Shown here: positions 24,980-45,655 of the stretch, piece after piece
Position numbering within the stretch: the first letter of the stretch is position 1
How the letters are laid out: every line of letters begins with the position of its first letter
Origin: Lingula anatina
Taxonomy: Eukaryota; Animalia; Brachiopoda
NCBI GenBank assembly: GCA_051362555.1
Contig: CM120643.1
Coordinates: forward strand, 3,906,001 to 3,970,000
Length of the DNA stretch: 64,000 nucleotides
Reading direction: 5' to 3'
The notes under the pieces: generated by a model
The model's input: the letters and a program-made list of their open reading frames with translations, nothing else
The model's database searches: none
What the model was told of the DNA's origin: nothing
Made by a program: the position numbers and the translations under genes

Positions 24980-25660
24980 GATTAAAGCAGCAATGTAGAT
25001 GTGTTTGTGTATCAGGAGTGGTTTTAGTGTATCTGCCTGTTTCAATGTGGAGTTTGTGTGAAAACAACTAAGGCTTTTTCTTTTTTCATCATCTTGAACA
25101 ACGTCCAGGTATTTTTTCTTTTTTAAATGTATTTTTGAATTGGCAGTAGATGCTGGATTTAGATTTGTCCACAAGTTAACTGTGCAAGTTTTGTACGAAG
25201 CCACTGATGATGTGTTTTTTGAATGTGCTAAGGAATTTTTTGTGAGGATTCTGTTTTAACCATACATCTCCAAATCCGTTTCGAATAGAGAAGTTATCAT
25301 CTTTCAGATTTGACAAGCTTTTTGTTGAGAGTAATTTGTAATATTGTAATTCATCTGTAGGTTTGCTTGTTTAAGTAGGTTGTTATCATCCAAGTGTTAT
25401 ATTTTAAGCCAAAATTTTATTAATTGTATTTTATACTTTATGTGAGCAAGAATTCTTCCAGTCTCTCCTCTGCCTGCATACTTTGATGATAAAAGTTGTT
25501 TACAAAACCTGAGGTTAAGTTTTTACAATTTTTACTGTTAGAGTAGTATAGCCTCATAACTCTGATCTGTATGTTCATGACTCCATAATGCCCCAGCTTT
25601 GGACAGATGTTATTAAGTCTGTAATTTTCATTGTTTCTTGAGCACAAACATTTGGTTTTA
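24980..25660 (-). mobile_element. Decayed non-LTR retrotransposon ORF2 C-terminus (RTE-X/L2-like)
   Basis: Frameshifted minus-strand translation gives IKFWLKI, GFGDVWLKQ, YCQFKNTF..KYL and HKLHIETGRY. Confidence 0.75.
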
Positions 25661-27764
25661 TGGTCTCATTGCCTGAGTAAAATGGTCACGGGATATTTTA
25701 TTTGATTTTGAAATCCTTTGGTACGGTAATGAGCCAAGCATTTCGACGGGCCCAGTCAATCCGACCACAAAAATTATTTTATAAAATTAATTTTTCTAGG
25801 CTCAAACATTTAGTCCATACGTCAAAATCATGCGACAGAATTTTTTTCTTGTTCCGATTGTTCGACCACGTCGTCGGCAAGACTCGGTAAATTTTCAAGC
25901 CAGTGAAATAGATGCTGCGTGCCTCGGCCCTTTGTCAATTGTTGTCCTTTCAAAAGCTCTCGTCAATGAGGAAGAAACAATTAATTGAAGATCTAATCTG
26001 GAAACATGACGTACCTGTCATTTCCTTTGTCCCCGATGACAATAATAGTGCTTATAGACATACAAATTGTGCTAATTAAGCAGACTTGCCCTCGCTGACT
26101 GATTCATCACGCCCGTAACTGGGGAGGGGGGGGGGTTAAAAAAAAGGTCTATTCTGGATGAAACCAAATATCGACAGTGGGTAGAATACGTCGTAAACAC
26201 CTTCATATAGACCATATATAGCGTTTGCTAGCAATAAAAAGTTTGGGAGGAATAAGCAATTTATTTTCAAGTTCGATTGGAATATATATTCAGATGGGGA
26301 AACGTTCTTGAAGTCAACACCGCAAGATCTTACATTTACTACAATCGACCGAAAGATCAGATCGACCCAGACTTCTTGGCGCCAAATACCACGCGCTGTC
26401 AAAATCTGACGAGCACGTGTAGCTGTTCACCTACATGGATAACTGATTTGTCAACAATAAAAATGACGTCTTCCTTAACTCCATGGCAGCTTCATAGAGA
26501 GTTCCACTGGGTATTTACGTTACCTGTGAGTCACTTTCTATTTCCCCAGATGCATGAAATGTTGATAATATTTAGCGTAAACCACGAAGAACCCCATTCC
26601 TGTGACCCCCCTCTCTCAAAATGGGACCGTCTTCATTAACATGTGGTTTGCGCTATTCTGGAGCAGACCAGTTAAGACCAGTCCCTTATTTCTGCATGTG
26701 CTCAATTCTCACGTCAAATTATAAATGCACCTGTTTTTTGAAATTATGGCAATTAAATGATTTTTTTTACGTTTGGGTTGTATCAGTGGGGTTTTCAATA
26801 TGCACCGCGGTTTGTGCACAGCGAGAGTATATAAGTAAGAAAATCGGAAGAGTGCCAGCAAGATACTGTATGACTATCGGCACAGGTAGGCTCCGTATTT
26901 TGCCTTTTCTCAATATGTTTTAATATGACATGCTTTTAAATAAAATACTGAAAAGTAATTTGAAGTGACACTGATTTCCGTTTGAGTACCAGTTGGTATT
27001 CTTTCATACGGGTGATTGAATTCTCTTTGGAAGTACGTACGTCTACGCCTCGACGCTGAGCAAGCCGGGTTGAAAACAACTGATCTCAGACTGGTAAAAA
27101 ATTTCAATTTGGTTGATTTCAGTTGTCATATTAAAGAATATTTTATGAGTAATTTTACTAGTACTTATCTTCATTATATAAAGATGGTAATGCACTAACT
27201 GTATTGTATCGTCATTTGTATATCATATTGTACAAGGTCATGATAATCTATGTACCAGTACAGAAATAAATTGAATTGAATTGAATTGAATTAAAATTCA
27301 AATAACTAGTTTAAGTCCACTAAAGCTACCGGTTTCAAATATAAGTGACTGGCCTCTGTTTACAACACCTGTCTCCGGGGAAATACTCGTCCCACTTGTA
27401 CGTGAAGCGCATCATGGAAATGATCGTATGTGAGGGAAATATATAATTAGAAATTATAATTGTCGTCTTTTGTAATGTTAAGTAATGTTAGTACATATTG
27501 TACACAGCAAAATAAGATTTCAGAAGGAGGATAAAAAATGCCTGAAACACGTGTTAGGCGAAAATTGCGGCTTATCTTGCGTAACACTTCCGGTAAAATG
27601 CAATACTTCCGGAAAGATGGACGTTTTGGCAGATGCCCCTAACAATCCGACGATATCAAAGGTTTCCATTTGCTGTATTTTAATCAATTCGACCAAACTG
27701 ACATTTCCATGAAATTAATTAATTAATCTTGGTCGAATTGTTTGGCATATTACCGTATGCAGGT

Positions 27765-27965
27765 TACTTTAGTCGGGGAAGCACGTGGGAATGCTGAGCT
27801 CATTATCGCCTGCCCAATATATATAGCAGCACATCTGATGTCAGCATTTTTGCTTTTGATTATTGACTTCAGAAGAAGATTTAAAGAGGGTGGTAACAGT
27901 GATAGGTTTTGGGAAACAGAGCTAACATCTTTTTTAGTGGGATATATGTTGTTATGCTTTGGTAG
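27765..27965 (-). mobile_element. Fragment of an Academ-like DNA transposon ORF (N-terminal part)
   Basis: LLPPSLNLLLKSIIKSKNADIRCAAIYIGQAIMSSAFPR resembles the LP.SL..L...K.ASIGQAIMQA.RPR motif I associate with AcademX-type proteins. Confidence 0.55.
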
Positions 27966-28212
27966 GGCTCTACCATACTTGCCCAAACTGGAAACTCGAA
28001 TTTTACCAAGCAAAAAATAAACAGTGTTTATGTCTCTCTTCATTTCAATTTTATTCTGGTGTTTGGGGTTTCTATTCTGTGAAATATCTGAAATGTAGTG
28101 ATAGTCTTGGATATGTCTGAGATATTGCCTGAGACTATGCTTCAAATCTGCAATACAGAATATAAAGAGAATAATGAGTACAAATATTGTCATCCTTTCT
28201 TGTCAAATTTCC

Positions 28213-28874
28213 TAGCTTCTGGAAGAGTCACCCATCACAATCATCATTGACGCGACGGCGTCTCTGACCTCCATGCAGTCACCTGTCATACACCTTGTCT
28301 GCATCAAATGCCTCATATGATTCACCCTCAATGGAAATGAGAAGAAGGTTATCTAACATGCTGGTGGCTAAACTCTCCCGCTTATCTGTTTTCACTCTCT
28401 TCACTGCACTGAATCCACGTTCACAGACTGCTGAAGACATGGCAGTCACTAAAAAAAATTCCACTACCATACTGATGTTACTGAATCTTCTCTGTAATTC
28501 TTCATCTGTAAACAACATGGCCCATGTATCCTGAATGTGCGCAGCATCACGTCTACCCCTCACATTCACTCTGTTCATTACCAAAGCTTGAAGTGCTGGC
28601 CACTCCCTGAGAACTTGGTTCTGGTCACACTCAAGTCTCTGCAGCAACTCATTAAAATGAACCATGATTATAATTTGGAGATCAGCATTCCCTGTACAAC
28701 CACATTTATGAAAATTTCACGATATTTATGAAGATTTCACAATTTTTTGAAATTAAATATCTGTTCTTTTACTTTATTTTGAGACTTGCCTGATCGCATT
28801 CAGGTGAGTGGACTTGTCCGACATCGATGTCTACTTGCCCTGGGCAATCGGGCAATCCTCATTGTCGAGCCCTG
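28213..28874 (-). mobile_element. hAT transposon deletion derivative carrying the C-terminal dimerization domain (ZNF862-like)
   Basis: ORF 28279-28665 contains SSAVCERGFSAVKRVKTDKRESL..LDNLLLISIEG. Terminal GAGCCCTG (28867-28874) with TTGCCC/GGGCAA subterminal motifs. Confidence 0.85.
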
Positions 28875-28884
28875 GACAGTTAGG

Positions 28885-29625
28885 GACAGATTTGATGCGA
28901 GTTGCTCCAATCTTCCTATTTTGCAGCAACCTTCTGCTCTTGTGTGAGCTGTTTTCAATAAAACACCTGTCTAAGGTACATTTAACCTGGGCAAATTTGT
29001 CACTTTGCCAGGATGGGGTGTGTGTGACAAATCCTTCATCACACTCTTAATCGCTAGACGTGTACTTGATATCAATGGCGCTCTTGATTTGTGCCTGCTG
29101 CACCTCAGTCTGCCACCCTTGGGCTGACAGGCTCACCTCAGTCTGCCACCCTTGGGCTGACAGGCTCACCTCAGTCTGCCACCCTTGGGCTGACAGGCTC
29201 ACCTCAGTCTGCCACCCTTGGGCTGACAGGATCACCTCAGTCTGCCACCCTTGGGCTGACAGGATCACCTCAGTCTGCCACCCTTGGGCTGACAGGATCA
29301 CCTCAGTCTGCCACCCTTGGGCTGACAGGATCACCTCAGTCTGCCACCCTTGGGCTGACAGGATCACCTCAGTCTGCCACCCTTGGGCTGACAGGATCAC
29401 CTCAGTCTGCCACCCTTGGGCTGACAGGATCACCTCAGTCTGCCACCCTTGGGCTGACAGGATCACCTCAGTCTGCCACCCTTGGGCTGACAGGATCACC
29501 TCAGTCTGCCACCCTTGGGCTGACAGGATCACCTCAGTCTGCCACCCTTGGGCTGACAGGATCACCTCAGTCTGCCACCCTTAGGCTGACAGGATCTGCA
29601 GCGCCTTCAGCCTTCTTTTGGCTTT
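28885..29625 (-). pseudogene. Pseudo-exon of a C14orf93-like (TE-associated) protein with an in-frame 33-bp amplification
   Basis: After a poly-T/CAG acceptor it reads KAKRRLKALQ[ILSAQGWQTEV]x15 QQAQIKSAIDIKYTSSD*ECDEGFVTHTPSWQSDKFAQVKCTLDR, with the pattern K..RR..AL...Y.SS.E...F...P.W.S......LD and two internal stops. Confidence 0.55.
29101..29595. repeat. 33-bp minisatellite, 15 copies
   Basis: Unit CACCTCAGTCTGCCACCCTTGGGCTGACAGGAT; the first three units end in GGCT and the last has TTAGG. Confidence 0.98.
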
Positions 29626-30699: not shown

Positions 30700-31745
30700 T
30701 GTACATGAGACATTTCACATGTTTCTTTTGGCTTTCCCACACTTCCGCGATTTTTTCTGTGTTTAACAATGGTACACCAAGTGTGTCCCGTCCTGCAGGA
30801 CCACTGAAGGCTGCCAGCAGCTGGTTGATTAGACTTAATGTTTCTTTCTCACCCCTGGTGGTACGTCTGCAATGCAAAGCAAGCTCTTTCCAAGTCAGTG
30901 GTTTCATATTTTCATCTCTGTCAGTCGATGGATGCATTTCATTTGCCTTGGCATCAAGTAAGAGCTGGAGGTTGTCTCTGTCTCAGGTGAAGATGTACTT
31001 GCTGAGGGTGGATATGAAGACACTGTATAGAGGCTGGGAATCAGTGGTGCAGCCAGTAGATAGTCGTCTCATAAAATGCCAGATGTGCAGCCTGATGACC
31101 GTATCTTCCCAACTGTAAAAAAATCTTCTTCAGGTTTGTTTTACTACAACAGTCCCTATCCATATATACCAAAGTTGGAGGGGGTTCTCCTGCATCCCTT
31201 TACCTAGTAACCAGCCCCTGTGCCATTTTGGTCAAGCCGTGGCCCTCACCTGCAGTAATTACAGAGTTCAGGACTTGACTGTGCTCATTTCCAACATTTG
31301 TACACCACATTGCGGTCTTGGTTACCGCACCAGCTAATTTCTTGACGACCTTTTTAGTTGAATCAAGCTTTAAAATATTTCCAAACTGACTTGTCAGCAC
31401 TGCTTTCAGTTTGGGAAGCCTGTCCATGACATCAATGGCATATGCATGCATCAGCCATCTTGGTTGGGGAACATGCTCTCTGGGCGGAGGCTGAACAAAC
31501 GCTGGAGGGGCAATGAGACCTGTCTGGGAAGCTTTGTGGAAGGGATGGCAGTCTGACCCATACTGGACAACCTTCCTGAGCCAGGGGTCTGTTTGTTGTA
31601 CACGAAGCTTCTTTTGTATTTGTGAGCTTCTGATTCTTAGGCCCCTCTCTTGTAAAAGACTGATCACTTTAACATTGCAGGCCAACTTTGCTGTTAGAAC
31701 AGCTGGGAAGTAAAGTCCGTGGCCAACATCCAGCTGTTGGATTAT
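30700..31745 (-). mobile_element. Decayed DUF6729-type putative transposase ORF
   Basis: QLDVGHGLYFPAVLT, LKLDSTKKVVKKLAG, NVGNEHSQVLNSVIT, VYMDRDCC, RLHIWHFMRRLSTGCTT, ELALHCRRTTRG and GRDTLGVPLL occur in order, across stops and frameshifts. Confidence 0.7.
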
Positions 31746-31786
31746 GTCCATACTCCAACTCACCAGTTTCCAAACCAATCTAAAAG

Positions 31787-31817
<31 letters not shown>

Positions 31818-31819
<2 letters not shown>

Positions 31820-31945
31820 ATTCCAATTTGATTAGTCTTTGCGCCGCTAAAATATGTCTGTCATTCAGCCATCCATTTCCTAACAGTGTATTTATGTCCC
31901 CTTTGGTTAGCCTGACACCTCTAACAGTGAGATTTTCATCTTCAT
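31818..31945 (-). pseudogene. Fragment resembling the N-terminus of a Ulp1/C48 SUMO-protease domain
   Basis: LTKGDINTLLGNGWLNDRHILAAQRLIKLEF contains the WLND..I motif. Confidence 0.55.
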
Positions 31946-33129
31946 TTTGTGTCCTATCATTGTCTATAGCTGATATGGGATGGTTGCAATACCCTGAAAG
32001 GGATTTCAGCTGGTACTCAACCACACCCTCACTCTCACAGTTGGTACATATATTTTCTGTTATCTGAGATTGCAATATAAAATCAAATGATAAGTAGGTG
32101 TAGGATGTTAGCCTTTTACAATATGGGTTATATATGTATATATTTATATATAACATCAGCAGGCAAGATTATGTCCCTTCTCTAAAAGGATTTTAGAGGA
32201 AATTTTTACTCTAAAATCTGTCTTTAGTCAGGTTAGAAAAAGTAATCATTATAAATATATTTTTTTTATTCAAAAAGGGTATTTCAGCCATACTATGGCA
32301 ACATTAGATAAACATTTGGAGATGATAGATATGTAGTTCACATTTTAAATTGCAAAGTACAGATTCATTGCTCAAGACAATTCTTCAATTATAAGATGAA
32401 AATTTCAGTCTAACCTATATCCAGAAAAATGCACAATCTGAGGACGACACATATTAAAATGAATGCTTCTTAATGTATATTTGCCAATTCAGGATACATG
32501 TATCTAATTAAATCTACATTTGTCCTTTTATACAAATAATATTAATACAAATTATTTAAACATTACCGTTATAAGTTGCTATACCTGATAAACATCTTTT
32601 ATGTGTCTTTGGCTCACCCTTGGTAACTGTAGGTGGCAAAGGAAGAACAGGAGAAGGGCAACAAGGTATACTGGTAGAACGGTAATCCTCTCTTGGGCTA
32701 GTAATGTCTGTTGGTAGCTCTAAATCAGGAAATCTATTTTCAGTTTTTATTACCCAATATTAAACTATTCAGTTCTGTTTCATGTGCTAGTAATGTGCAT
32801 ACTTTGGTGTTGTTGTTGTTATTATTATTATAATTATTAAAAGCAGCACAGATTATGCAAAAATACTACGGAGCAACTAAAATCTAGAGTACTAAAACCA
32901 TCATCATCTATGTTCTCTTTGTTTTGGGAAGGTCTACATGGCTTGATCCTAATTAATTGTCCTGATTATATGTCTTTTCTAGTCATATATTTTCTCTACT
33001 GACATCTGTAATGTTTGTTCTACAAACCCATCACCATCTCCACATTCCATCAGTTGAAGGATTGTATTTTGTAGGAGTAAACTGTGGATACTGTGTTGTG
33101 AAGGTGAAAATATTCTGCACAGAAAACTG

Positions 33130-33345
33130 AGGAGCCCTGTGATACAGTGGTCAGGGCATGTGTCTTAATTCTCTCTTCAGGCTCACTTTTTATTCTGTGT
33201 CTTCAGATAATGCAGACTTGTTGATAAATCATTCTTCAACCTTTGACATTGATTAGCAGAAATGAACCCTTTGATCTGCCAAAAATCACACTGTTCTCTG
33301 AAAGCCCTTAAGCCTTTTGCGCCATCTGCTGCAATGTTAGCACAG
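33130..33345 (-). mobile_element. Decayed DNA transposase fragment (Sola3-like, tentative)
   Basis: NIAADGAKGL...RLKNDLSTSLHYLKT...CPDHCITGLLS resembles G LD...G..AF...YLK.DYK.H...DHC...ALS motifs; recalled by eye. Confidence 0.4.
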
Positions 33346-33439: not shown

Positions 33440-33605
33440 ATTTTATTTTACTTAATTGTCATGTGATTTGTTAAAGAAGGTGGTGTAAGTGAGGCTCTCC
33501 AATCCGTTTTTACACGTTTCATTAGAGAAAAGCCCCTTTCTGCATCGGCACTGCTGACTGGAAGGACCATCACAATGGCCAAGAGAGCACAAATATTGGT
33601 TATTT
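33440..33605 (-). mobile_element. Second, distinct hAT transposase C-terminal dimerization-domain fragment
   Basis: TNICALLAIVMVLPVSSADAERGFSLMKRVKTDWRASLTP. Confidence 0.85.
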
Positions 33606-34149
33606 GTCTTTATGTACTGTCAGCATACTACTTAAGAAGGCAACAAGCTTACTATGTCCTGCCCCTTTTCATGAAACTCCAGCACAGATTTTTTTCAATA
33701 TAATTTCTTAGCAATTAGAAGTGGGTATTGACATATTTTCACGTTTTAGTTTGACGTAAAATTTATGAATGGATGCATATATGGTGATATTGAAATGTTG
33801 TTATAGAAATAACTTGTTCAAGATTATAGAGATATGATAAGGTTTATTTGGGTGCAAAGCTGAGGGACTGTGGAAGTATTGTATTCACACGTACTTGAAT
33901 GAAGTCAAAAGTAAAAGATGTGCTGGCATGCATTAGGTGTGTGAAAGTTATCTTCCAGAGTTTCTCAAAGGAAAGTAAAAGAGATAAACGTGACTGTTGA
34001 GGATATTTTGAACATTAAAAAACAACAAGAGTGGAAATCAATAAATAAATAATTTTAATATGACGAAAAAAACTGTACAGAAAATGTTGAATAAAATAGA
34101 CAAAAAACTCTGAAAAATTGATATCGTTAAGTCACTGAAGTAGACGAGG

Positions 34150-35579
34150 TACTGCTAAGCCGTGAAACGGTAGACCGTGCTGCTACTGAAACGAATAGCT
34201 GTAGAGCCGTTGGTCGGTAGATCGTGCTGTGGGCTGCTGAGACGAGTAGCTGCAGAGCCGTGGGTCGGTAGATCGTGCCATGGGCCGCTAAGACTAGTAG
34301 CTGCAGAGCCGTGGGTCGGTAGATCGTGCCATGGGCCGCTGAGACGAGTAGCTGCAGAGCCATGGGTCGGTAGATCGTGCAGTGGGCCACTGAGACGAGT
34401 AGCTGCAGAGCCGTGGGTCGGTAGATGTCGTCCCGTGCCGTGGGTCGGTAGATGTCGTGCCGTGCCGTGGGCCGCTAAGACTAGTAGCTGCAGAGCCGTG
34501 GGTCGGTAGATCGTGCCATGGGCCGCTGAGACGAGTAGCTGCAGAGCTGTGGGTCGGTAGATCGTGCCGTGGGCCGCTGAGAGGAGCAGCTGCAGAGCTG
34601 TAGCTCGGTAGATCGTGCCATGGGCAGCTGAGACGAGTAGCTGCAGAGCCGTGGGTAGGTAGATCATGCCGTGGGCTGCTGAGACGAGTAGCTACAGAGC
34701 CGTGAATCGGTAGATCGTGCCGCTGAGACGAGTAGCTGCAGAGCTGTGGGTCGGTAGATCGTGCCGTGGGCCGCTGAGACGAGTAGCTACAGAGCCGTGA
34801 ATCGGTAGATCATGCCGTGTGCCGCTGAGACGAGGTGGGCCGCTGCTGTAGAAGAATAGACTGAGCAGTAAAACTGCCCAGCTTATATACATTGGCCGTT
34901 GGTCGATAGATCGTGCTGTGGGCCGCTGAGACGAGTAGCTGCAGAGCCGTGGGTCGGTAGATCGTGCCATGGGCCGCTAAGACTAGTAGCTGCAGAGCCG
35001 TGGGTCGGTAGATCGTGCCATGGGCCGCTGAGACGAGTAGCTGCAGAGCCATGGGTCGGTAGATCGTGCAGTGGGCCACTGAGACGAGTAGCTGCAGAGC
35101 CGTGGGTCGGTAGATGTCGTCCCGTGCCGTGGGTCGGTAGATGTCGTGCCATGCCGTGGGCCGCTAAGACTAGTAGCTGCAGAGCCGTGGGTCGGTAGAT
35201 CGTGCCATGGGCCGCTGAGACGAGTAGCTGCAGAGCTGTGGGTCGGTAGATCGTGCCGTGGGCCGCTGAGAGGAGCAGCTGCAGAGCCGTAGCTCGGTAG
35301 ATCGTGCCATGGGCAGCTGAGACGAGTAGCTGCAGAGCCGTGGGTAGGTAGATCATGCCGTGGGCTGCTGAGACGAGTAGCTACAGAGCCGTGAATCGGT
35401 AGATCGTGCCGCTGAGACGAGTAGCTGCAGAGCTGTGGGTCGGTAGATCGTGCCGTGGGCCGCTGAGACGAGTAGCTACAGAGCCGTGAATCGGTAGATC
35501 ATGCCGTGTGCCGCTGAGACGAGGTGGGCCGCTGCTGTAGAAGAATAGACTGAGCAGTAAAACTGCCCAGCTTATATAC
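34150..35579. repeat. GC-rich 51-bp minisatellite organised as two 689-bp higher-order units
   Basis: Monomer GAGCCGTGGGTCGGTAGATCGTGCCATGGGCCGCTGAGACGAGTAGCTGCA; the variant pattern and unique tail (...GCTTATATAC) recur at 34881 and 35570. Confidence 0.95.
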
Positions 35580-35829
35580 ATGCTGCAGGTAAAAATCGTT
35601 CTGCTTCGAAAGAGTTAAAAAACGGGAGGGGGGTAGGGTAAACCGTCGCTGACACGTGACAAAATGTTATTTTGGCTAGTAATCTATAATAAATATCTGA
35701 TTCAAATTGAATAAAGTAACTTTTCTGATTTTGGAACCGAGACGGCAGTTCTGTTGTTTCTGACACCGACATCGCCCACTGATAGAGACTGTTTATTATG
35801 AATTAACACAAAAATTAACAGTCAGTTAC

Positions 35830-36048: not shown

Positions 36049-36502
36049 CTGTGAAAAGTTGAGAAAAGAGTTCAACAAAAGAAGCTAACAATAAATAAAA
36101 TATTAGCCTGCAATACTATGCAATGGTTTTGGAATGTTATTGCAAAATAGTTATTTGTGGTACCTCTTGAAGATCCAGTGATAATCCTATACAGACTTAT
36201 GCTAAGCACAAATATCCCAATGTGACATGATGCTGATGAAATACCTTCAGTGACAAACTTAGTTAAGATCAAAACTTAAGTTTAACAATGCATTAAAAGT
36301 ACAATATCTCTCACCATACAGGGCTCTGTAATAACTTTTTCAGCCATGTGCCCAGCTTCTAGAAGAGTCACCCGTCACAATCATCATTGACGTGATGGCG
36401 TCTCTGGCCTCCATGCAGCCACCTGTCATACAGCTTATCTGCATCAAATGCCTCATATGATTCACCCTCAGTGGAAATGAGAAGAAGGTTATCTAACAGG
36501 CT

Positions 36503-36977
36503 GGGCCTAGTTTCATAAAGGACATTGTGTTTCCTAGATCGCATTCACAACGAGTTGAGCCAGGCTTTACAAATCCTGGGGACTAAATATGGCAGACGTA
36601 CATGAAAGAAAAACCGCCTAATCTTTTAATAGTCTCTCCGCCTCTCACACACCTCCCCTGCAGGGGGACAGTCATTAAATATCGGCTCTATTGGAACGAC
36701 ACATGGGGAGGCGTGTGGTTTTTCTTTCATGTACGTCTGCCATATTTAGTCCCCAGGATTTGTAAAGCCTGGCTCAACTAGTTGTGAATGCGATCCTAAA
36801 CTGTTTAAACAGCCGATTAGTTAACTGGCCAGTGTATAGCTGCATAAAATATTTAAAGGTCAGTTAACTAACCAGCTGTTTAAACACTGTTTATGTTTAA
36901 AATTGTGTTTCATAGGAGAATTTATCCACTGGTTAGGCTTATACACTGGTTAGTGCTAAACGTCCTTTATGAAACTG
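36503..36977. mobile_element. MITE (Harbinger-like TIR) inserted in the hAT fragment
   Basis: GGGCCTAGTTTCATAAAGGAC ... GTCCTTTATGAAACTG; absent from the paralog near 28360. Confidence 0.75.
36537..36795. mobile_element. Foldback MITE with ~78-bp terminal inverted repeats, nested in the previous MITE
   Basis: GATCGCATTCACAAC.AGTTGAGCCAGGCTTTACAAATCCTGGGGACTAAATATGGCAGACGTACATGAAAGAAAAACC and its reverse complement end the element; CTA on both flanks. Confidence 0.9.
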
Positions 36978-37515
36978 TTTTCATTCTCTTCACTTCACTG
37001 AATCCACATTCACAGACTGCTGAAGACATGGCAGTCACTAAAAAAATTTCTAATACCATACTGATGTTACTGAATCTTCTCTGTAATTCTTTATCTGTAA
37101 ACAACATGGCCCATGTATCCTGGATGTGTGCAGCATTACGTCTACCCTCACATTTACTCTGTTCATTACCAAAGCTTTAAGTGCTGGCCTCTTGGGTTCT
37201 GGTCATACCCAAGTCTCTGCAGCAACTCATTAAAATAAGCCATTATAATTTGGAGATCAGCATTCCTGTGTACAGCCAATTGACCTATTTATGGAGATTT
37301 CACGATTTTATGAAATTAAATATCCATTCTTTTACTTTATTTTGACACTTGCCCAATCAGGCAAGCATTCAGGTGAGTGGACTTGCCCGACATCAATGTC
37401 TACTTGCTCCAGGCAATCAGGAAATCCTTATTGTTGAGCCCTGGACAGTTACATAGATAAGCATTCTTGGGCAGGGTAATGTAGTACAGGTTGCTGGTTA
37501 AAATGAAAACACTAA

Positions 37516-37971
37516 TGTAACCGAGTGTTTCTTGTATTTTATAGCATGGCAACAAAGTTGATTGGTTTTCCAAAAATTAACGTTTATTCAATTCAATTAT
37601 GGCATATAGAGTCATATGTAATAAAATGACATACAAAATGGCATATATAAGGCCCCCTGAAAAGGTACAAAGAATATATTTTAATAAGGCCTATTATAAA
37701 GTTACATACATACATACTGAAATACTGACATATTGAATGTGAGACAAATATCGGTATCTTTTATAATGAATAACTATGAATGAATATAATAATTTATAAG
37801 TAAATACCTGTACTAACCCTGATAACACTGAAAAAGCCTAGAGCACACAACACACGTGTCTCTTCGTCTCTCCACACACACAGTGAATGAATACTAAGGT
37901 CAAATTCACCGCGTCACTTCCGGAGTTACCGGAAGTTATATATATTCATGAGAATCTTATCACTTGTCACA
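37516..37971 (-). repeat. 3' LTR of element 2 (456 bp)
   Basis: Identical by eye to 44650-45105. Confidence 0.97.
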
Positions 37972-37983
37972 TTCTCCCCTCCT
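37972..37983 (-). promoter_or_regulatory. Polypurine tract of element 2
   Basis: AGGAGGGGAGAA on the minus strand abuts the 3' LTR. Confidence 0.9.
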
Positions 37984-38198
37984 AATTGTTTTGTCGTCCC
38001 AGACAAAATAATTGTTACAGTAATTACTTATAAAAAAAATTTGCATAAGCTTGTCTTAAACTATATATACCATAATCAAAACAACAATAAACCATTATAT
38101 ATAATGACTACTATTTACATGACACCAGTATCTCCCTCAATTATAACTATTCTTTACTCTCTTAAATCAAATACTTAAACCAAAGCTTACATCATTTA

Positions 38199-38640
38199 AG
38201 TTATCAGAGACATCCAATGTACATTAACATAGTAAGTATAATGCATCTTACAAGAACTCTCTCTCTACTTAGACCTTAGCCTACACAACATACTTGATAA
38301 AAGTTATCAGAGACATCCAATGTACATTAACATAGTAAGTATAATGCATCTTACAAGAACTCTCTCTACTTTATCACTTAACTACCCTGTACAATCAAGA
38401 TATCAACTTTATACTATCTAATCACCCTCTTAATACTGGAGTCTTATACTTAACTACACTTAAACTACCTAATATATACTAACTTATCACCCTCCTCATA
38501 CTGGAGTCTTATACTTAAATACACTTAAACTATTAACTAAGTAATCACTATCCTAATACTGGATTTCTATCACTTAAAAACACCTAAACTATCAACTACA
38601 TACTAAGTAATCACCCTCCTAATACTGGAGTATTATTACT
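38199..38640. repeat. Internal repeats in the 3' UTR of element 2 (one ~100-bp duplication and ~60-70-bp ATCACCCTC..AATACTGGAG units)
   Basis: AGTTATCAGAGACATCCAATGTACATTAAC occurs twice; ATACTGGA motifs occur four times. Confidence 0.8.
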
Positions 38641-38714
38641 TTGTAAAAAAAAATAAATACAACTATACCAGCTTAGCTGTCCTGAAAAATACCTAAGCAT
38701 AACTACACATGTAC

Positions 38715-41700
38715 TTAAGTTTTTCTCAACATTAATTGTAAGAACAATTTTTGAGTCTCTACTAAATCCTGTAATGAATCAGACCCTCCTGATTTTTTAT
38801 TCTCAGTACCCTGAAAATCTAACTGTCCATCAGTCTGAGTAGATATTGTTTTACACTCTACAGATTGCTCCACACAGACACTTTTAGGCAATTTATTGAT
38901 ATTTGAATGTTTTCCTGCTGTTCTTCGCGTACTTCTCCTTAATACAGCTACTTCATTACGAAGCTGGTCCAATGACATGTTACTAAAATCCATTTCAGCA
39001 TTTTGGTCACATTCCTGTACATTTGATTCAGGATTTGATTTTCTTAACACATAAACTTCATATTCCTCATTTTCATCACTTTCATCAGAATCTGAATCAT
39101 TTTTGTACACACGTTGCACATTTTGACATGACTGACCAGTCTCAACTTCACTGCTTTCCTCTTTCTGGACCCTATCTAAGATTAACTCACGAGCATCCAT
39201 CAATGCGTCACGGTGAATTGTTCTCTCAGGCCCTGTTCCATTGACACGTTTCACTTTGTACACTCTTCCCTCAGTATCCACACAGTCTATAACAATATAT
39301 GGCTCTGCTTCCCACTTGTCTTGAATTTTATTCCTTCCCATTACATGGAAATTTTTCACAAAAACCTGGCTTCCAAGCACCAAAGGTCTGCTATTTGCTT
39401 TCACTTTGCTTCTTTCATGGCGTTTAGTAGCTTCATTTTCTGTATATTTCAAAGCTGTTCGGTATGCTTCCCGCAGGCGTTTCTGGTGACCAACAATCCA
39501 GTCATTCACTTCTTCCCCTGCTGTCTCCCCTCCTGGAATACTTGATTTTAAAAGAAAATCAATTGGCAATCTTGGCTCTCTCCCGAACATTAAAAAATAG
39601 GGAGAATACTTCGTAGTTGTATGAGGTGTACAGTTATATGAATATACTAATTCTGGTAAATACTCTGGCCAACGTTTTTTCTGTTCTTGTTGTAGAGTTC
39701 TTAAACGGTCGTGTAATGTTCTATTAAAGCGCTCAGCTTGAGAATTTCCCTGAGGATGATACGGTGTTGTTCTGCTTTTTACAATGCCATAAATTCCACA
39801 CAATTCCTTTATCAATGCACTTTCAAAATTACGTCCTTGATCACTGTGAATACGATCTGGAGCACCAAATCGAACAAACCATTCCTTAACTAAAATCTTA
39901 GCTACAGTTTTTGCTTTCTGATCACGTGTGGGGATAACCTGAGTATACTTTGTAAATACATCTGTCATAACTAATACATTTTCAAGACCAGAACTACTTG
40001 GTTCTAACATCGTGAAATCTATAGCTAACACTTCTAAGGGACGCTTTGCAATTATTGAACCCAAAGACGTTTTCACACTTTTTCCTTTGGCAACTACACA
40101 ACGCTGACAATTATCACAATAGTCTTTCACTTCTTTTCCCATGCAAGGCCAAAAACAACGAGATTCCAATATTTGTAATGTTTTCTCACTCGACTGATGA
40201 CCCATATTATCATGTACTGCTTTCAAAACAACAGTTTTTAAAAATTCTGGTAACAAAACTTGACATGCAACTACATTGTTATGCACCTTGGTTCTATATA
40301 ATATTCCATTCACTTCTTTCAATCTACTCCAGTCTCTGAGAATTCTGTTCACTTTCTTAGTTTCTTTACGCATCTGTCGGACAGTTGGCTTTCCATGTCT
40401 CCAATATTTGAGTACTCTACCAATCGTGTTGTCGGTTTCCTGGTATTTTTTCATATCTTCACTATCAATTGCAGGAAAAGTACTAGTGGATAAATGATTT
40501 TCTTGAATCCTTATGTCTTTATCTATACTGGCAGTCTGTGCAATCAGTTTTCGTGGAAGTAAAGTACCATAATGTCTAAAAAATGAATTTTCAGCTTGCT
40601 CATTCCACTGTACTTCTTCAAACCGCACAGAATGAGGTTCTGCGTCTGTAACATCTTTTCTACTCAATGCATCTGCTACCACGTTGGTTTTTCCTGATCT
40701 GTACTTTATCTGTAATCTAAAATTGGCTAGCTCGGCAACCCATCTTGCCTCTGTTGCTCCAAGTTTTGCAGATGACTGTACATATGCAAGTGGATTATTA
40801 TCTGTATATACAACACAGTTTGCACCAATTAGATAGTCTCTGAATTTCTCTGTAACAGCCCACTTCAAAGCACACAGTTCTAGCTTCATAGCACCATAAC
40901 TCCCACTTTTCTCAGCTGGACGTAAGGATCTACTCGCATAACTAATTACAACAATTTTTCCATTTTGTTCTTGAGATAGTACAGCTCCAAGACCCATACC
41001 GCTAGCATCTATTTCTAATATATATGGTTTTGTAAAGTCTGGATACCCCAGCAGTGGCGCATGAGTTAATGCATGTTTCAGTTTCTGAAATGATTCCACA
41101 CACTGTGAATCCCATTTCCAAGCAGTAGTAGACTTCACAATCTTGCTTGATTTCTGTGATGATTTTGTTCCTCCAGTAAGTTTATGCAATGGCCCGGCGA
41201 TTTTAGCAAAGTTTGGAACAAATCGTCTGTAATAGCTGCACACACCAAGGAACTGTGACAGTTGTTTCTCATTTTTTGGAGTGTTCCAGTTTTTTATTGC
41301 GGATATTTTACTAGGATCTGGTTCCACACCTTCTCCTGACACAATATGACCCAAGTAACGTAACTTCTTATGTAACAGTTGACATTTGCTAGGCTTGACC
41401 TTGAGGTTCTCTTCCTGTAACCTTTGTAAAACTATCTCAAGTCTCTCTAATGTTTCTTCTACTGTAGACCCAAACACTAAAATATCATCAAGATATATCA
41501 GTACACTTTTAAAATTTATGTCACCAAACAATTGATCCATCAATCGCATGAAAGTAGCTGGTGCTCCACAAAGACCAAAACTCATTCGAGTAAACTCAAA
41601 AAGACCACCTGTCCCTGACCTAAATGCTGTTTTTGGAATATCATTTTCATTTATTGGTACCTGGTAATACCCATGAGCTAAATCAAGAGAACAGTAATAT

Positions 41701-42974
41701 TTTGAACCACGTAATACATCTAAAGCCTCTTCAATTCTCGGTAGAGGGTATGCATCATGATGTGTTTTTGCATTAAGTTCCCTATAATCAACACACATTC
41801 GAAGTTCACCTGTTTTCTTACGTACTAATACAATTGGAGCAGCATAAGGACTATGCGAGTCTCTGATAATACCTCTTTCCTTCCATTGCTTCAAATACTG
41901 TCTCAATTCTTCCCAGTGCTGAGGAGGAACTCTTCTATGTGGAATACGGACTGGTACATCATCTTTGGTTCTTATGTAATGTTTCACTTTCCGGCATAAA
42001 CCAATGTCATCATCATTCTTGCTAAAAACATTATCATATTTTACAATTAAGTCAATCAGCAGTCTTTTACTTTTCTCATCAAGTGTCATACCAACATCCA
42101 TTTTCTGTAACAACTGTTCTGCAGTGGCCTTGGCATTCGGAGTTGACACATCACACATCTCAGATTGAACAACTAAATTGTCACCTACAGCATCAAAGCG
42201 ATTTATGGGTTGTATCTTAGCTATCTGTGTACGAGGTTTCAAATAAATATCTGCATCACTGGTATTTGCTATTGGGCATGGTATAATTCCTTCTTGATTA
42301 ACAGCTACACAGGTTGTGCCAATCATTATACCACGAGGCAAAGTTAGACTTTCCATTTCTTCTATAACAGCATAATAAAACTGACCATTACCTGCTTGGC
42401 TTACAGTTGCTGGTACCACTTGGACTGAACTTGCTGGTATAAGTATGGGTTGATTCCCTGCAATCTTGACTTTACTTTCTTGTAAACGGTTTGTGTACGC
42501 CACATTTTCTTCATAAAGTGACAGCACTGCTACCCATTCGTCTGAGTGATTCTTCAAAATAGACTTGTAGCCTTCTCCAAAGTACTGTTTAACATGGCGG
42601 AAGACATTAGATCCAATTACCCCAGGCACCTGTATTTTCCGTTTCTCCACAGGAGTATCAGTAGGATCTTTAACTACAAGGAAACCTACATTGGGAATAA
42701 CATGATTATTGATCTGTAAATCAGTTTCAATGTATCCAAGGTATGGTATATCAGCACCTTGTGTACTAGAAATGTTAATCAAACTTGAAACGTCAATCAA
42801 ATGTACACTGGGTAAGTTTTCTCTGTACCATCTTTCTGTGACTGTTGATACTTGCGCTCCCGTGTCCAATAAACACTGAATACTACATCCATTAATGCTA
42901 ACCACAGTTTCTGGACATTTTCCAACTATCTTTGTTAAAAACCCATTTAAAAATCCTGATTTTGTGGACAGTTT
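38715..42974 (-). CDS. Pol polyprotein (PR, RT, RNase H, IN), about 1400 aa, probably expressed by -1 frameshift from gag
   Basis: LLDTGAQVST; YLDD; DASGMGLGAVL; HDNMGH..CQRC; IDF; DQGRNFE; AER. The frame is open up to 42974, upstream of the annotated GTG at 42905. Confidence 0.96.
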   Translation of the reverse strand, partial: KLSTKSGFLNGFLTKIVGKCPETVVSINGCSIQCLLDTGAQVSTVTERWYRENLPSVHLIDVSSLINISSTQGADIPYLGYIETDLQINNHVIPNVGFLVVKDPTDTPVEKRKIQVPGVIGSNVFRHVKQYFGEGYKSILKNHSDEWVAVLSLYEENVAYTNRLQESKVKIAGNQPILIPASSVQVVPATVSQAGNGQFYYAVIEEMESLTLPRGIMIGTTCVAVNQEGIIPCPIANTSDADIYLKPRTQIAKIQPINRFDAVGDNLVVQSEMCDVSTPNAKATAEQLLQKMDVGMTLDEKSKRLLIDLIVKYDNVFSKNDDDIGLCRKVKHYIRTKDDVPVRIPHRRVPPQHWEELRQYLKQWKERGIIRDSHSPYAAPIVLVRKKTGELRMCVDYRELNAKTHHDAYPLPRIEEALDVLRGSKYYCSLDLAHGYYQVPINENDIPKTAFRSGTGGLFEFTRMSFGLCGAPATFMRLMDQLFGDINFKSVLIYLDDILVFGSTVEETLERLEIVLQRLQEENLKVKPSKCQLLHKKLRYLGHIVSGEGVEPDPSKISAIKNWNTPKNEKQLSQFLGVCSYYRRFVPNFAKIAGPLHKLTGGTKSSQKSSKIVKSTTAWKWDSQCVESFQKLKHALTHAPLLGYPDFTKPYILEIDASGMGLGAVLSQEQNGKIVVISYASRSLRPAEKSGSYGAMKLELCALKWAVTEKFRDYLIGANCVVYTDNNPLAYVQSSAKLGATEARWVAELANFRLQIKYRSGKTNVVADALSRKDVTDAEPHSVRFEEVQWNEQAENSFFRHYGTLLPRKLIAQTASIDKDIRIQENHLSTSTFPAIDSEDMKKYQETDNTIGRVLKYWRHGKPTVRQMRKETKKVNRILRDWSRLKEVNGILYRTKVHNNVVACQVLLPEFLKTVVLKAVHDNMGHQSSEKTLQILESRCFWPCMGKEVKDYCDNCQRCVVAKGKSVKTSLGSIIAKRPLEVLAIDFTMLEPSSSGLENVLVMTDVFTKYTQVIPTRDQKAKTVAKILVKEWFVRFGAPDRIHSDQGRNFESALIKELCGIYGIVKSRTTPYHPQGNSQAERFNRTLHDRLRTLQQEQKKRWPEYLPELVYSYNCTPHTTTKYSPYFLMFGREPRLPIDFLLKSSIPGGETAGEEVNDWIVGHQKRLREAYRTALKYTENEATKRHERSKVKANSRPLVLGSQVFVKNFHVMGRNKIQDKWEAEPYIVIDCVDTEGRVYKVKRVNGTGPERTIHRDALMDARELILDRVQKEESSEVETGQSCQNVQRVYKNDSDSDESDENEEYEVYVLRKSNPESNVQECDQNAEMDFSNMSLDQLRNEVAVLRRSTRRTAGKHSNINKLPKSVCVEQSVECKTISTQTDGQLDFQGTENKKSGGSDSLQDLVETQKLFLQLMLRKT

Positions 42975-43891
42975 CTAAGTAAATGTTCTTCTGAACCACA
43001 CTTAAAACATTTCCTCACCTCAGATTGTCTACCATATCGGTTGCTATGTCGACCTCTACCTCTACTTTGACCTCTACCTCTTACTTCTCTTATCATGTCA
43101 CGCTGACCTCGAAATTGTCCTCTCATTAACTCATTTATTTGTTGCTGTTGCTGCAAAATTTGTTTAGATTGCTGAGCTATTTGTTTACTTTGCTCTTGGA
43201 CTAATTTTAAAATTTCATCATTTTGTACAGCAGACTCTTGGAGAGTACCTGTTTCTTTCTGATTCTGATCACTCCTACCGATCCAGTCAATAGCTCTATC
43301 TCTAAGGTCAAAAAATGACAATCTTGGTTGTTCTAAATTTAGTCTTCTCAACTCTCTTTTCAAACTGTTATCTCTAACACATTCCGCTAATCTACCTTTC
43401 AGTGTATTATCTCTGTCAACCAAGAATTCTTCCCTGATAACACAAATTTCATCAAAAAGTTCAACCAATTTTAGTGAACATGAGAGCAGATCTTCTTTAC
43501 TACCTTGTTTGTACTCATAAAAACGTTGCTGAAGAACAGGCAGTATGTCACCATCCCCGAAAACTTTTATTAAAATTTCAAAAATTTTCTCTGGGTTTGT
43601 GCTAATTTCTATCCCTCTACCAATGATTTCTTTTCTAGCTTTACCAGCTAAATTACTAACAATGAAAGCGGTAGCTTCTTCCCTATCTTTAAATTTTCTG
43701 GTATTGAGGTGAGCTTTTATATCTTGCACCCATTCCTTAATTTCTACATCATCAGGAGATGAAGGCTTATCTTTAAAACGTGCTATTCTTCTTGAAGAGG
43801 AAATATACTGGTAACATGATTGATCAGTAAAACCTTCAGATCTTAACTCTTCTTTAATTTCTGACTTTAGTTTTTCTTTACTCTCTGCCAT
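42947..43891 (-). CDS. Gag, 314 aa, PNMA-like capsid region with a C-terminal CCHC knuckle
   Basis: CFKCGSEEHLLRNC, RG-rich linker, position upstream of pol inside the LTRs. Confidence 0.92.
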   Translation of the reverse strand: MAESKEKLKSEIKEELRSEGFTDQSCYQYISSSRRIARFKDKPSSPDDVEIKEWVQDIKAHLNTRKFKDREEATAFIVSNLAGKARKEIIGRGIEISTNPEKIFEILIKVFGDGDILPVLQQRFYEYKQGSKEDLLSCSLKLVELFDEICVIREEFLVDRDNTLKGRLAECVRDNSLKRELRRLNLEQPRLSFFDLRDRAIDWIGRSDQNQKETGTLQESAVQNDEILKLVQEQSKQIAQQSKQILQQQQQINELMRGQFRGQRDMIREVRGRGQSRGRGRHSNRYGRQSEVRKCFKCGSEEHLLRNCPQNQDF

Positions 43892-44089
43892 TTTTATTCA
43901 AACCAACTAACAACATGCAATATTCTAACTCAGTTGACTGATGTAATGTTAAACTAAACTAAACAAAACTAAACTAAACTATAACATATAATACTACTAC
44001 AACTGATAAACAATAAGAATATATACAATATTTACAATATATTTATTCACTGTAATGCACTGCAAAATGTATGGTATGAGACTACTCTG

Positions 44090-44571
44090 GCTCCACAGAT
44101 CATTGGTCTTGCGCCGACACCATGAAGATTTACTGAGGAAGTCACTGGCCCTGGTCCTGCGTTGACACGACGAATTTCACTGATCCTGTACTATGTCCAC
44201 ACACGCAGATCACTGGCCCTGGTTCACTGGCTCAAGGAAATCATGCACTGGTCCTGCGCCGACACCATGGAGTTCACTTGCCCTGTACCGAATTCACATA
44301 GATCACTGGCTCTGATTCACTGGCTCAAGGACATCACTAACCCAGAAATGGATTCACACATGACACTGGCTCTGGTTCACTGGCCCAAGGAAATCATTAG
44401 CCCAGAACAGTATTCACACAGGTCACTGGCTCTGGTTCCCTGGCTCAATTACATCATTAGCCCTGAACAGGATTCACACAGGTCACTGGCTCTGGTTCAC
44501 TGGCTCAATGACATCACTAGCCCTGAACTGAATTCACGCAGGTCACTGGCTCTGCTTCACTGGCTCAAGGA
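44090..44571. repeat. 60-bp tandem array in the 5' leader of element 2
   Basis: ATTCACAC.GGTCACTGGCTCTGGTTCACTGGCTCAA recurs at 60-bp spacing across 44290-44570, with degenerate copies to about 44090. Confidence 0.9.
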
Positions 44572-44629
44572 AGGGCGGGGTGGGCTAACTACTTGTATGC
44601 CTTATATATGCCATGTGCCACACTATCTT

Positions 44630-44647
44630 ACCCTGTTCGCAGCGCCA
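44630..44647 (-). promoter_or_regulatory. Primer-binding site, most like tRNA-Ser
   Basis: TGGCGCTGCGAACAGGGT lies 2 nt after the 5' LTR; it resembles Ser PBS TGGCGC(T/A)G(T/C)GAGCAGG(A/G)T and, less well, Lys TGGCGCCCGAACAGGGAC. Confidence 0.75.
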
Positions 44648-44649
44648 AA

Positions 44650-45105
44650 TGTAACCGAGTGTTTCTTGTATTTTATAGCATGGCAACAAAGTTGATTGGT
44701 TTTCCAAAAATTAACGTTTATTCAATTCAATTATGGCATATAGAGTCATATGTAATAAAATGACATACAAAATGGCATATATAAGGCCCCCTGAAAAGGT
44801 ACAAAGAATATATTTTAATAAGGCCTATTATAAAGTTACATACATACATACTGAAATACTGACATATTGAATGTGAGACAAATATCGGTATCTTTTATAA
44901 TGAATAACTATGAATGAATATAATAATTTATAAGTAAATACCTGTACTAACCCTGATAACACTGAAAAAGCCTAGAGCACACAACACACGTGTCTCTTCG
45001 TCTCTCCACACACACAGTGAATGAATACTAAGGTCAAATTCACCGCGTCACTTCCGGAGTTACCGGAAGTTATATATATTCATGAGAATCTTATCACTTG
45101 TCACA
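44650..45105 (-). repeat. 5' LTR of element 2 (456 bp)
   Basis: TGTGACAAG...CTCGGTTACA on the minus strand; identical by eye to the other LTR. Confidence 0.97.
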
Positions 45106-45294
45106 CTAACATGCTGTGATGTTTCCAGTACTACAGCTAAATGAAGTTAATTATGTGCTCGGTGAGGCATGGCAAGAAACACATGCTGATGGTCACATTT
45201 AATACCACGATCCGTTAACATGTGATAGCTGATACAAGAAGGCGCACATCTTGGTAGTGAGAGCTTTATCATAAAGTAAAGTGTTTTACTCTAT

Positions 45295-45655
45295 TCTAAC
45301 ACAGGTGATGTTTTACAGTAGGTTTATTCACAAAAACGTCGTAGGCGAAGGTCATAAATAGCTTCACCTTCCTCGCCACCATATAAAGGCACTAGTGCCT
45401 TTTCACGGCCTCAATTATCCTTTCTTGACATGAATTGTCACTGGCAAATGTGATTGCCTGCTGTTTCAAAAAAGGACTTCTCATGCCCATTAGAAATACC
45501 TGTTTTCCTATTCCATAGGGAAATGATGTGTCACATTCCAAGATGGAATGGATGAAGAGAATATTGTCGCATATATCACTTCCTAACTTGGCCCTTGTTG
45601 TTCTAATGTTCCAGCATTTTGATGGCCCTTTGGCATTGCTCTTTTGTTGGGGTTA
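45295..45655 (-). mobile_element. Decayed Academ-like XPG/FEN1-type nuclease domain fragment
   Basis: WNIRTTRAKLGSDICDNILFIHSILECDTSFPYGIGK...IIEA(G)EKALVPLYGG...DLRLRRFCE matches the H3TH-type HA..GCDT.S..G.GK...GE..L..LY..L..LR pattern. Confidence 0.7.

What the first reader, a model, noticed from the sequence alone, without database searches (positions are those of the whole stretch)
24980..45655. ~20-kb single-orientation mosaic of unrelated TE fragments: candidate uni-strand piRNA cluster / TE trap
Seen: every coding relic I could orient in this interval is on the minus strand. These are an RTE-X-like LINE (24980-25660), Academ-like (27765-27965), hAT (28213-28874), C14orf93-like exon (28885-29625), DUF6729-type (30700-31745), Ulp1-like (31818-31945), Sola-like (33130-33345), a second hAT (33440-33605), OB-fold exon (35830-36048), a hAT paralog (36319-37443), an intact Gypsy (37516-45105) and an Academ XPG-like piece (45295-45655). 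Most are 150-1000-bp pieces of different superfamilies placed close together. Established: uni-strand piRNA clusters such as Drosophila flamenco accumulate TE fragments antisense to the precursor transcript. Inference: a + strand precursor crosses this region, and the young antisense Gypsy is a recent capture. About ten independent fragments sharing one orientation is unlikely by chance.
Basis: partly seen in the sequence, partly recalled or inferred. Interest (0 to 1): 0.78.

Follow-up and report, generated by a model that had tools for sequence, protein, structure and literature searches.

The report
Duplicated antisense transposon patch, piRNA candidate
A 20-kb patch of broken jumping-gene pieces that all face one way appears to exist in a few copies, and opposite-strand RNA reads match it at low level behind spliced exons, so it likely belongs to the known one-strand loci that make transposon-silencing small RNAs, although those small RNAs are untested.

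Summary
The one-way layout is real but overcounted. Tools place 7 of the 12 named pieces clearly on the minus strand and 2 weakly; 3 labels (RTE-X, C14orf93-like, Sola-like) stay unconfirmed. Two hAT pieces are paralogs. An equally young, intact plus-strand Gypsy lies 2.7 kb outside the chosen edge. The run probability is 0.03 to 0.002.

DNA contigs indicate that the mosaic, with its junctions and linkers, exists in about 3-6 copies (inferred from depth). No flanking termini, Helitron end or Rep/Hel gene was found.

Stranded poly(A) reads, oriented by splice sites, are plus-strand, so antisense to the relics (89-100% in two libraries of one study). Depth falls from about 500x on upstream spliced exons to 2-5x in the block. 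There is a 1.4-kb gap, and many reads carry paralog variants.

Best reading (0.5): a duplicated, read-through-type uni-strand piRNA precursor like those of slugs and mammals. It is not a flamenco equivalent. The scan noted this layout before in other genomes (8 notes).

The parts
14877..15080 (+). Exon-like paralog of the 23.5-kb exon; its donor site is GG, not GT, in this copy
   Evidence: 73% identical to 23411-23797; 22 letters of an X12 loose end (327 reads) match 15022-15043 exactly; alignment
17667..22306 (+).
   Evidence: ORF 17870-21856 with protease, RT, RNase H and integrase; 149-bp identical LTRs and 5-bp TSD
23503..23702 (+). Spliced exon with stops in all three frames; highest RNA depth (about 500x in X12; under 1x in X15)
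   Evidence: 167 reads leave at 23702, just before GT; translation
24263..24365 (+). Second spliced exon (three short frames open, no family hit); RNA continues beyond it at 325x, then 63x
   Evidence: 190 reads join at the AG before 24263; no Pfam family at E 0.02
24980..25660 (-). LINE-like C-terminal relic (RTE-X label unconfirmed); low copy; antisense RNA 21-50x in X12
   Evidence: translation resembles a recalled motif; no Pfam hit; depth
25724..27755 (.). High-copy non-autonomous TIR element flanked by TA duplications; no coding orientation
   Evidence: termini; summed contig depth 10,000-32,000; empty-site joint 25720 to 27755 at depth 231 in X6
27765..27965 (-). Academ-like transposase fragment (weak)
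   Evidence: one homolog at E 0.28; tblastn E 0.002 on a minus frame; family name recalled
27967..28874 (-). Internally deleted hAT element 1, with TIR-like ends and no TSD in this copy
   Evidence: Pfam PF05699 E 1.6e-4; termini
28885..29625 (-). C14orf93-like exon (unconfirmed), holding a 33-bp x 15 tandem array at 29101-29596
   Evidence: array; no usable Atlas hit
30707..31769 (-). Internal fragment of a DUF6729 DDE-type transposase, with one stop and one frameshift
   Evidence: Pfam E 5.5e-28; covers aa 512-866 of a 1478-aa fish homolog
31818..31946 (-). Ulp1/SENP-like fragment (weak), cut at a 31-nt C run
   Evidence: SENP2 best hit, E 0.034
33130..33345 (-). Sola-like piece (unconfirmed)
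33451..33609 (-). hAT dimerisation-domain fragment from a different family
   Evidence: Pfam PF05699 E 2e-5; no DNA match to hAT 1 in the self-BLAST
34186..35523 (.). 51-bp tandem array, internally duplicated
35818..36048 (-). RPA-like OB-fold exon
   Evidence: Atlas score 0.94, 183 shared features
36319..37443 (-). hAT element 2, paralog of hAT 1 with the same 8-bp 5' flank; interrupted by a palindromic MITE at about 36509-36976
37516..45105 (-). Intact young Gypsy with gag and pol; no further minus ORF of 90 aa or more after pol
45317..45652 (-). Nuclease-like fragment of Academ/XPG type (family name recalled)
   Evidence: 14 of 15 phmmer hits align back here

Best explanation
The block is a patchwork of transposon fragments on the minus strand that is likely duplicated in about 3-6 copies and is matched by low-level plus-strand poly(A) reads behind spliced exons with no known protein match, and it likely serves as the 3' read-through part of a one-strand piRNA precursor.

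Shown: minus orientation of 7-9 pieces; plus-strand spliced RNA upstream; antisense reads over 24.8-31.7 and 33.1-33.7 kb; linkers and one junction present at several-fold single-copy depth.

Inferred: the upstream exons and the block lie on one transcript; antisense pieces were kept by selection; the mosaic was assembled once, then duplicated and reshuffled; the RNA would be cut into 24-32-nt piRNAs aimed at DUF6729, hAT, Academ-type and Gypsy transcripts.

Which copy is transcribed is open.
For: 1. Orientation of the relics, with no plus-strand Pfam hit in 133 ORFs.
2. First mate is minus in 99.7% (24.8-25.7 kb) and 98% (27.7-29.1 kb) in X12, 83% in X15 at 27.7-29.1 kb, and 89% (X12) and 100% (X14) at 29.6-33.7 kb. 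Break points at 23702|GT and AG|24263 fix this as plus-strand RNA.
3. X12 depth falls from 502x to about 250-325x, 21-63x and then 2-5x, as read-through would.
4. T+G excess on plus in 14 of 15 1-kb bins over 7-17.7 and 22.3-27.3 kb, against 8 of 17 on the right flank. AATAAA counts are 11 plus against 34 minus over 7-17.7 kb. This fits long-standing plus-strand transcription upstream.
5. A few sense-direction reads at 30.7-31.1 kb in X12 suggest a transcribed DUF6729 relative that could be a target.
6. Precedent: slug clusters are uni-strand over densely packed antisense TE fragments, and piC-DoGs are spliced read-through precursors (PMC11615739). Lymnaea clusters are enriched for Gypsy and DNA transposons (PMC6128900).
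Against: 1. No small-RNA data were available.
2. RNA in the block is low: 76 reads in X12 and 32 in X14 over 4.5 kb, from about 6% of each run. X15 is about 1x or less, and X18 has almost nothing outside one repeat. X12 and X14 are one study.
3. X12 has no reads over 31728-33095 and X14 none over 32032-33247, where this copy differs from its paralogs.
4. Only 12 of 76 and 495 of 5929 X12 reads are 99% or more alike, and 61% of X12 reads run on into unlike sequence. Reads carry paralog variants, so this copy may be silent.
5. No read or joint links the exons to the block.
6. AATAAA is not depleted on plus within the block (16 plus, 16 minus), and the block linkers show no strand skew.
7. A sense Gypsy as young as the antisense one lies between the exon copies.
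Confidence: 0.5

Rival explanations
1. An ordinary non-coding transcription unit runs weakly over a duplicated transposon graveyard. Sense-oriented pieces were purged because their splice and poly(A) signals disturb the transcript, and few piRNAs are made.
For: Antisense bias of TEs in introns is described as a result of such selection (PMC3517506, PMC1794541; abstract openings). RNA in the block is low and patchy. AATAAA is depleted on plus upstream. In mouse, read-through alone is not tied to antisense TE content (PMC11615739).
Against: The cited intronic bias concerns mammalian genes and, in PMC1794541, retroviral elements; the pieces here are mostly short DNA-transposon coding fragments. 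Their density is higher than in the flanks: no credible Pfam family in 125 of 197 flank ORFs of 50 aa or more, although most block relics also escape Pfam.
Confidence: 0.28
2. The block is cargo of one composite mobile element (Helitron or Helentron type) that captured fragments in steps and was copied several times; the shared orientation reflects capture, and the antisense RNA comes from a host unit around one copy.
For: Linkers and junctions occur at several-fold depth: joint 25720 to 27755 at 231, linker 29931-30116 at 258, joints at about 182, against 56 for a 901-nt near-identical contig. Most pieces lack termini and TSDs. An RPA-like OB fold is present, and RPA domains occur in Helitrons (PMC3288121). 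Stepwise capture is known. An unchecked note reports Helentron cargo in this genome.
Against: No Helitron-type hairpin plus CTRR end on either strand of the window by a strict scan. No Rep/Hel Pfam hit. No TIR pair brackets the block. Low-copy depth continues left of 24980 into the exon region. The 59 DUF6729 loci from other organisms show none of the other relic types nearby, although they are only 1-9 kb long.
Confidence: 0.12
3. The run is chance plus edge choice: a handful of independent insertions, inflated by local duplication, happen to share a strand, and the RNA bias comes from one paralog lying by chance in some transcript.
For: A plus-strand Gypsy lies 2.7 kb outside the edge and a plus-strand LINE-like relic at 61.4-61.7 kb. 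Three labels are unconfirmed. The run probability is 0.03 with confirmed independent pieces only, and thousands of windows are scanned.
Against: The RNA strand matches the prediction made beforehand, in two libraries clearly and one weakly, and is continuous in direction with the upstream spliced exons.
Confidence: 0.1

Closest known systems
Uni-strand, transposon-antisense piRNA clusters of slugs (PMC11615739, passages; Deroceras laeve, PMC12506671, passages)
   Same: Densely packed TE fragments on one strand, with RNA from the other strand.
   Different: There the piRNAs were sequenced. Here only long RNA was seen, at low level, from a family of about 3-6 copies.
piC-DoG read-through piRNA precursors of mammals (PMC11615739, section 10 read) and read-through core clusters of mosquitoes (bioRxiv 10.1101/2022.08.22.504762, abstract)
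   Same: Spliced upstream exons, with signal falling off into antisense TE-rich DNA.
   Different: No host gene, promoter or poly(A) site is defined here. The upstream exons are themselves repeated and have no protein match. The content is mostly DNA-transposon pieces.
Drosophila flamenco and flam-like clusters (PMC10643416, passages)
   Same: One-strand TE orientation that includes an antisense Gypsy.
   Different: The flam-syntenic clusters cited are 227-1,085 kb, and the strand bias of flam-like loci is driven exclusively by Gypsy. This block is 20 kb, holds one Gypsy among about a dozen pieces, and has a sense Gypsy beside it.
piRNA clusters of Lymnaea stagnalis (PMC6128900, passages)
   Same: Enrichment for Gypsy and DNA transposons such as hAT.
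   Different: The passages seen give no orientation analysis and stress young elements; many pieces here are decayed.
Cargo-carrying Helitrons (PMC3288121, PMC4224331; passages)
   Same: Low-copy mosaics of captured fragments, including RPA-like domains.
   Different: No Helitron end or Rep/Hel gene was found, and the RNA is antisense to the fragments.

Membership tests
Uni-strand piRNA cluster | Makes 24-32-nt, 1U-biased, phased small RNAs from one strand | not testable with these tools
   No small-RNA run among the 21 runs listed
Uni-strand piRNA cluster | TE fragments antisense to the precursor | tested here: met
   7 clear and 2 weak minus-strand relics; RNA is plus strand, 83-100% by library and stretch
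Uni-strand piRNA cluster | One long precursor crossing this locus | tested here: inconclusive
flamenco / flam-like cluster | Hundreds of kb, with strand bias driven by Gypsy elements (PMC10643416) | tested here: not met
   20.7-kb block, one Gypsy among 12 pieces, sense Gypsy 2.7 kb away; DNA beyond the window not seen
piC-DoG read-through precursor | Read-through past the last exon and poly(A) site of an upstream gene | tested here: inconclusive
   Spliced plus exons and falling depth; no gene model, poly(A) site or linking read
Helitron composite element | 3' hairpin plus CTRR terminus, or Rep/Hel gene | tested here: not met
   Strict scan found none on either strand; no Pfam hit
Helentron/HINE composite element | Short sub-terminal inverted repeats, 3' stem-loop and TT target (recalled) | not tested
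   Needs aligned paralogs; no genome held
Composite TIR transposon | TIR pair and TSD bracketing the block | tested here: not met
   None among the 25 longest of 38 inverted pairs or in the self-BLAST
Any composite mobile element | Block recurs in several copies with common termini | tested here: inconclusive
   Recurrence inferred from contig depth, about 3-6 copies; termini not seen

The most novel reading that the evidence does not exclude
A family of duplicated, spliced non-coding loci acts as an antisense library of DNA-transposon coding pieces. The pieces were acquired as short internal fragments without termini, by repair-like capture rather than by whole-element insertion, then shuffled between copies and read out as piRNAs. 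This would be a spacer-like transposon memory, and a first piRNA-cluster family for brachiopods if the genome is Lingula, as unchecked notes say.
Probability: 0.12. Interest if true: 0.72.

Novelty: new member of a known kind. Interest (0 to 1): 0.4.

Why it matters
If small RNAs confirm it, this is a piRNA cluster predicted from DNA alone, in a lineage for which my two searches listed no cluster description (listings only). It is aimed mainly at DNA transposons and is low-copy, so gain, loss and reshuffling of fragments could be read by comparing paralogs. That bears on how clusters acquire content: trapping whole elements, or keeping or capturing fragments.

The class itself is known from slugs, mosquitoes, flies and mammals, and this scan has noted the layout in other genomes, so the surprise is moderate.

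Tried and rejected
Genome and family searches:
- No whole genome is held, so there is no background orientation test and the paralogs could not be read.
- No RNA holder was listed in the word index, and no small-RNA run was listed. This is no evidence either way.
- Pfam on flank ORFs (125 of the 197 ORFs of 50 aa or more) gave 8 weak hits, all below the curated cut-offs; they were rejected as noise.
- Rfam gave 0 matches and ARAGORN 0 genes.

Labels that could not be confirmed:
- The homolog search with the plus-strand LINE-like piece found none among 45 candidates, and it did not align to the minus-strand LINE-like piece.
- The Atlas was uninformative for the XPG-like piece and the C14orf93-like piece.
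- The PDB search with homolog P0020 gave only chance hits. P0017, a bacterial repeat protein, was dropped as a false hit.

Own analyses:
- An amino-acid-composition scan for relics was driven by GC content and is inconclusive: block 24 minus to 14 plus, right flank 21 to 16 at the lowest threshold.
- tblastx against 59 metagenome DUF6729 loci gave only 4 low-score side hits of 27-34 bits, which were rejected.
- No convincing TIRs were found in 7 of those 59 loci.

Literature and earlier notes:
- Searches for DUF6729, Academ + XPG + transposase and piRNA cluster + segmental duplication + transposon fragments + antisense returned 0 papers.
- Earlier-finding look-ups by place and by sequence were empty.
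Full report
Setting. The window is AT-rich, repeat-rich animal DNA with many tandem arrays. No whole genome is held. Earlier notes on other pieces of this genome call it a brachiopod, Lingula; I did not test that. There are only two coding units above 350 aa, both Gypsy: plus 17870-21856 and minus 38715-42974, the latter with its gag at 42947-43897.

Observation. Seven of the 12 named pieces are clearly on the minus strand. DUF6729 at 30707-31769 has Pfam E 5.5e-28, and all 16 homologs align there. Two hAT dimerisation domains are found, and a third hAT is a DNA paralog of the first. The Gypsy has 456-bp identical LTRs and a 4-bp TSD. The OB fold scores 0.94 in the Atlas. The piece at 45317-45652 is matched by 14 of 15 phmmer hits; its Academ/XPG name is recalled. 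The Academ-like piece (E 0.28) and the Ulp1-like piece (SENP2, E 0.034) are weak. RTE-X, C14orf93-like and Sola-like have no tool support. Among 133 ORFs in and beside the block, Pfam hit 2, both minus.

Independence and chance. The two paralogous hATs are 85-93% identical and share the 8 bases before their 5' end, with no TSD here, so they count once. The relics cover 4.9 kb plus 7.6 kb of Gypsy, out of 20.7 kb. A 2032-bp TIR element with TA duplications (25724-27755), a MITE and arrays cannot be oriented. An intact plus-strand Gypsy with identical 149-bp LTRs ends 2.7 kb left of the chosen edge, and a plus-strand LINE-like relic lies at 61.4-61.7 kb (by eye). With those included, a run of 7 among 9 has p = 0.031 and a run of 11 among 13 has p = 0.002. 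That is suggestive, but not decisive in a genome-wide scan.

Copy number. I laid two stretches: 22320-29090 and 29600-34150. In X6, a 901-nt contig with 2 differences has depth 56. Single contigs over the LINE-like, Academ-like, hAT and DUF6729 pieces and over a non-coding linker have depths of about 150-335. The empty-site joint 25720 to 27755 has depth 231, and two deletion joints at 31.9-32.5 kb have about 182. One X1 contig (depth 93) bridges the hAT and Academ-like junction. The tool warns that depth is no copy number; my ratio-based inference is about 3-6 copies of the mosaic with private insertions and deletions. No termini were found: no bracketing TIR, no Helitron-type 3' end, no Rep/Hel. 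The 59 DUF6729 loci from other organisms (1-9 kb) carry none of the other relic types, so these pieces do not look like parts of one native element.

RNA strand. In X12 (poly(A), about 6% of the run read), 167 reads break at 23702 just before GT, and 190 break at the AG before 24263. Both are canonical plus-strand splice sites, and these bins are first-mate-minus, so that direction is plus-strand RNA. The 23.5-kb exon has stops in all three frames, and no flank ORF has a credible family.

RNA level. X12 depth runs 502x at 23.5 kb, 254-325x at 24.1-24.6 kb, 21-63x at 24.6-25.7 kb, 2-13x at 27.7-29.1 kb and 1-6x at 29.6-31.7 kb. The plus share is 99.7%, 98% and 89% in X12, 100% in X14 (same study) and 83% in X15 at about 1x. 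X18 looks unstranded and is nearly empty outside one repeat. Strand skew and AATAAA depletion on plus over 7-17.7 kb fit long-standing plus transcription upstream; neither is seen in the block.

Results against the reading. Only 495 of 5929 and 12 of 76 X12 reads are 99% or more alike, and many carry variants seen in paralog contigs. X12 has no reads over 31728-33095. No read links the exons to the relics. X15 lacks the exon signal. A sense Gypsy of the same age lies between exon copies. No small-RNA run was listed.

Mechanism. The most likely picture (0.5) has four steps. A family of plus-strand, spliced non-coding units reads on into a tract where antisense TE coding pieces have been kept. 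The tract was duplicated and reshuffled. The RNA is processed to piRNAs. Those piRNAs target related elements; a few sense reads at 30.7-31.1 kb hint at a transcribed DUF6729 relative. Orientation, RNA strand and upstream splicing are shown. Duplication is inferred from depth. Continuity, selection and piRNA output are inferred. The rivals are an ordinary lncRNA over a TE graveyard (0.28), cargo of a rolling-circle composite (0.12) and chance with edge choice (0.10).

Comparison. It works like slug uni-strand clusters and piC-DoGs (PMC11615739: passages and section 10; PMC12506671: passages) and mosquito read-through clusters (bioRxiv 10.1101/2022.08.22.504762: abstract and outline). Its content resembles Lymnaea clusters (PMC6128900: passages). 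It fails the size and Gypsy-driven features of flam-like clusters (PMC10643416: passages). Helitron capture was read in passages of PMC3288121 and PMC4224331. lincRNA orientation bias was read in passages of PMC3580499, where it varies by family. Intronic antisense bias was seen only as abstract openings. Searches for Lingula + piRNA and brachiopod + piRNA cluster listed no paper whose title or abstract opening describes such a cluster (12 of 13 and 7 of 8 listed, none read).

Verdict. This is a candidate new member of a known kind; membership is unproven because the defining small RNAs could not be tested. Eight earlier notes of this scan report the same layout in other genomes; they are not evidence. 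Interest 0.4.

Noticed in passing
window 17667-22306 (+): Intact Gypsy with a single 1328-aa ORF, short 149-bp identical LTRs and a 5-bp TSD; a very recent insertion.
   Followed up: partly
window 1317-7020, 14877-15080, 23503-24700 (+): Repeated exon-like units with pyrimidine-rich acceptors. Four copies sit inside a 193-bp satellite. X12 reads join one exon copy to another paralogous copy, which suggests a repeated-exon non-coding RNA family; the exon signal is strong in X12 and near zero in X15.
   Followed up: partly
window 22320-22997 (also 15.5-17.6 kb and 8.3-8.5 kb): Extremely high-copy repeat (summed contig depth about one million), strongly transcribed in both X12 and X15, mostly in one direction.
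   Followed up: no
window 27861-28022: An X1 contig matches with 0 mismatches and 7 gap letters across the hAT 3' end. That number would fit a paralog that keeps the 8-bp target duplication; the contig letters were not seen.
   Followed up: no
window 53430-53650 (-): Two tRNA-like, SINE-type stretches seen by eye on the minus strand; ARAGORN finds no tRNA.
   Followed up: partly
window 61430-61714 (+): LINE-like C-terminal relic on the plus strand (recalled motif); no homolog found.
   Followed up: partly
window 14240-14320 and 36580-36660; 14414-14605; 49118-49295; 58114-58405; 63373-63519: Palindromic MITE-like elements; the one inside hAT 2 has a relative at 14.2 kb.
   Followed up: no
P0001-P0016; L001-L059: DUF6729 proteins carry a transposase-like D..D..DxxH..E pattern (recalled reading) in fish, a bivalve and metagenome contigs. 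The term is in 0 papers of the library, and no termini were found in 7 loci, so the superfamily is unassigned.
   Followed up: partly
window 33840-34000: Short high-copy repeat (depth 4,900) with RNA on both strands inside the block.
   Followed up: no
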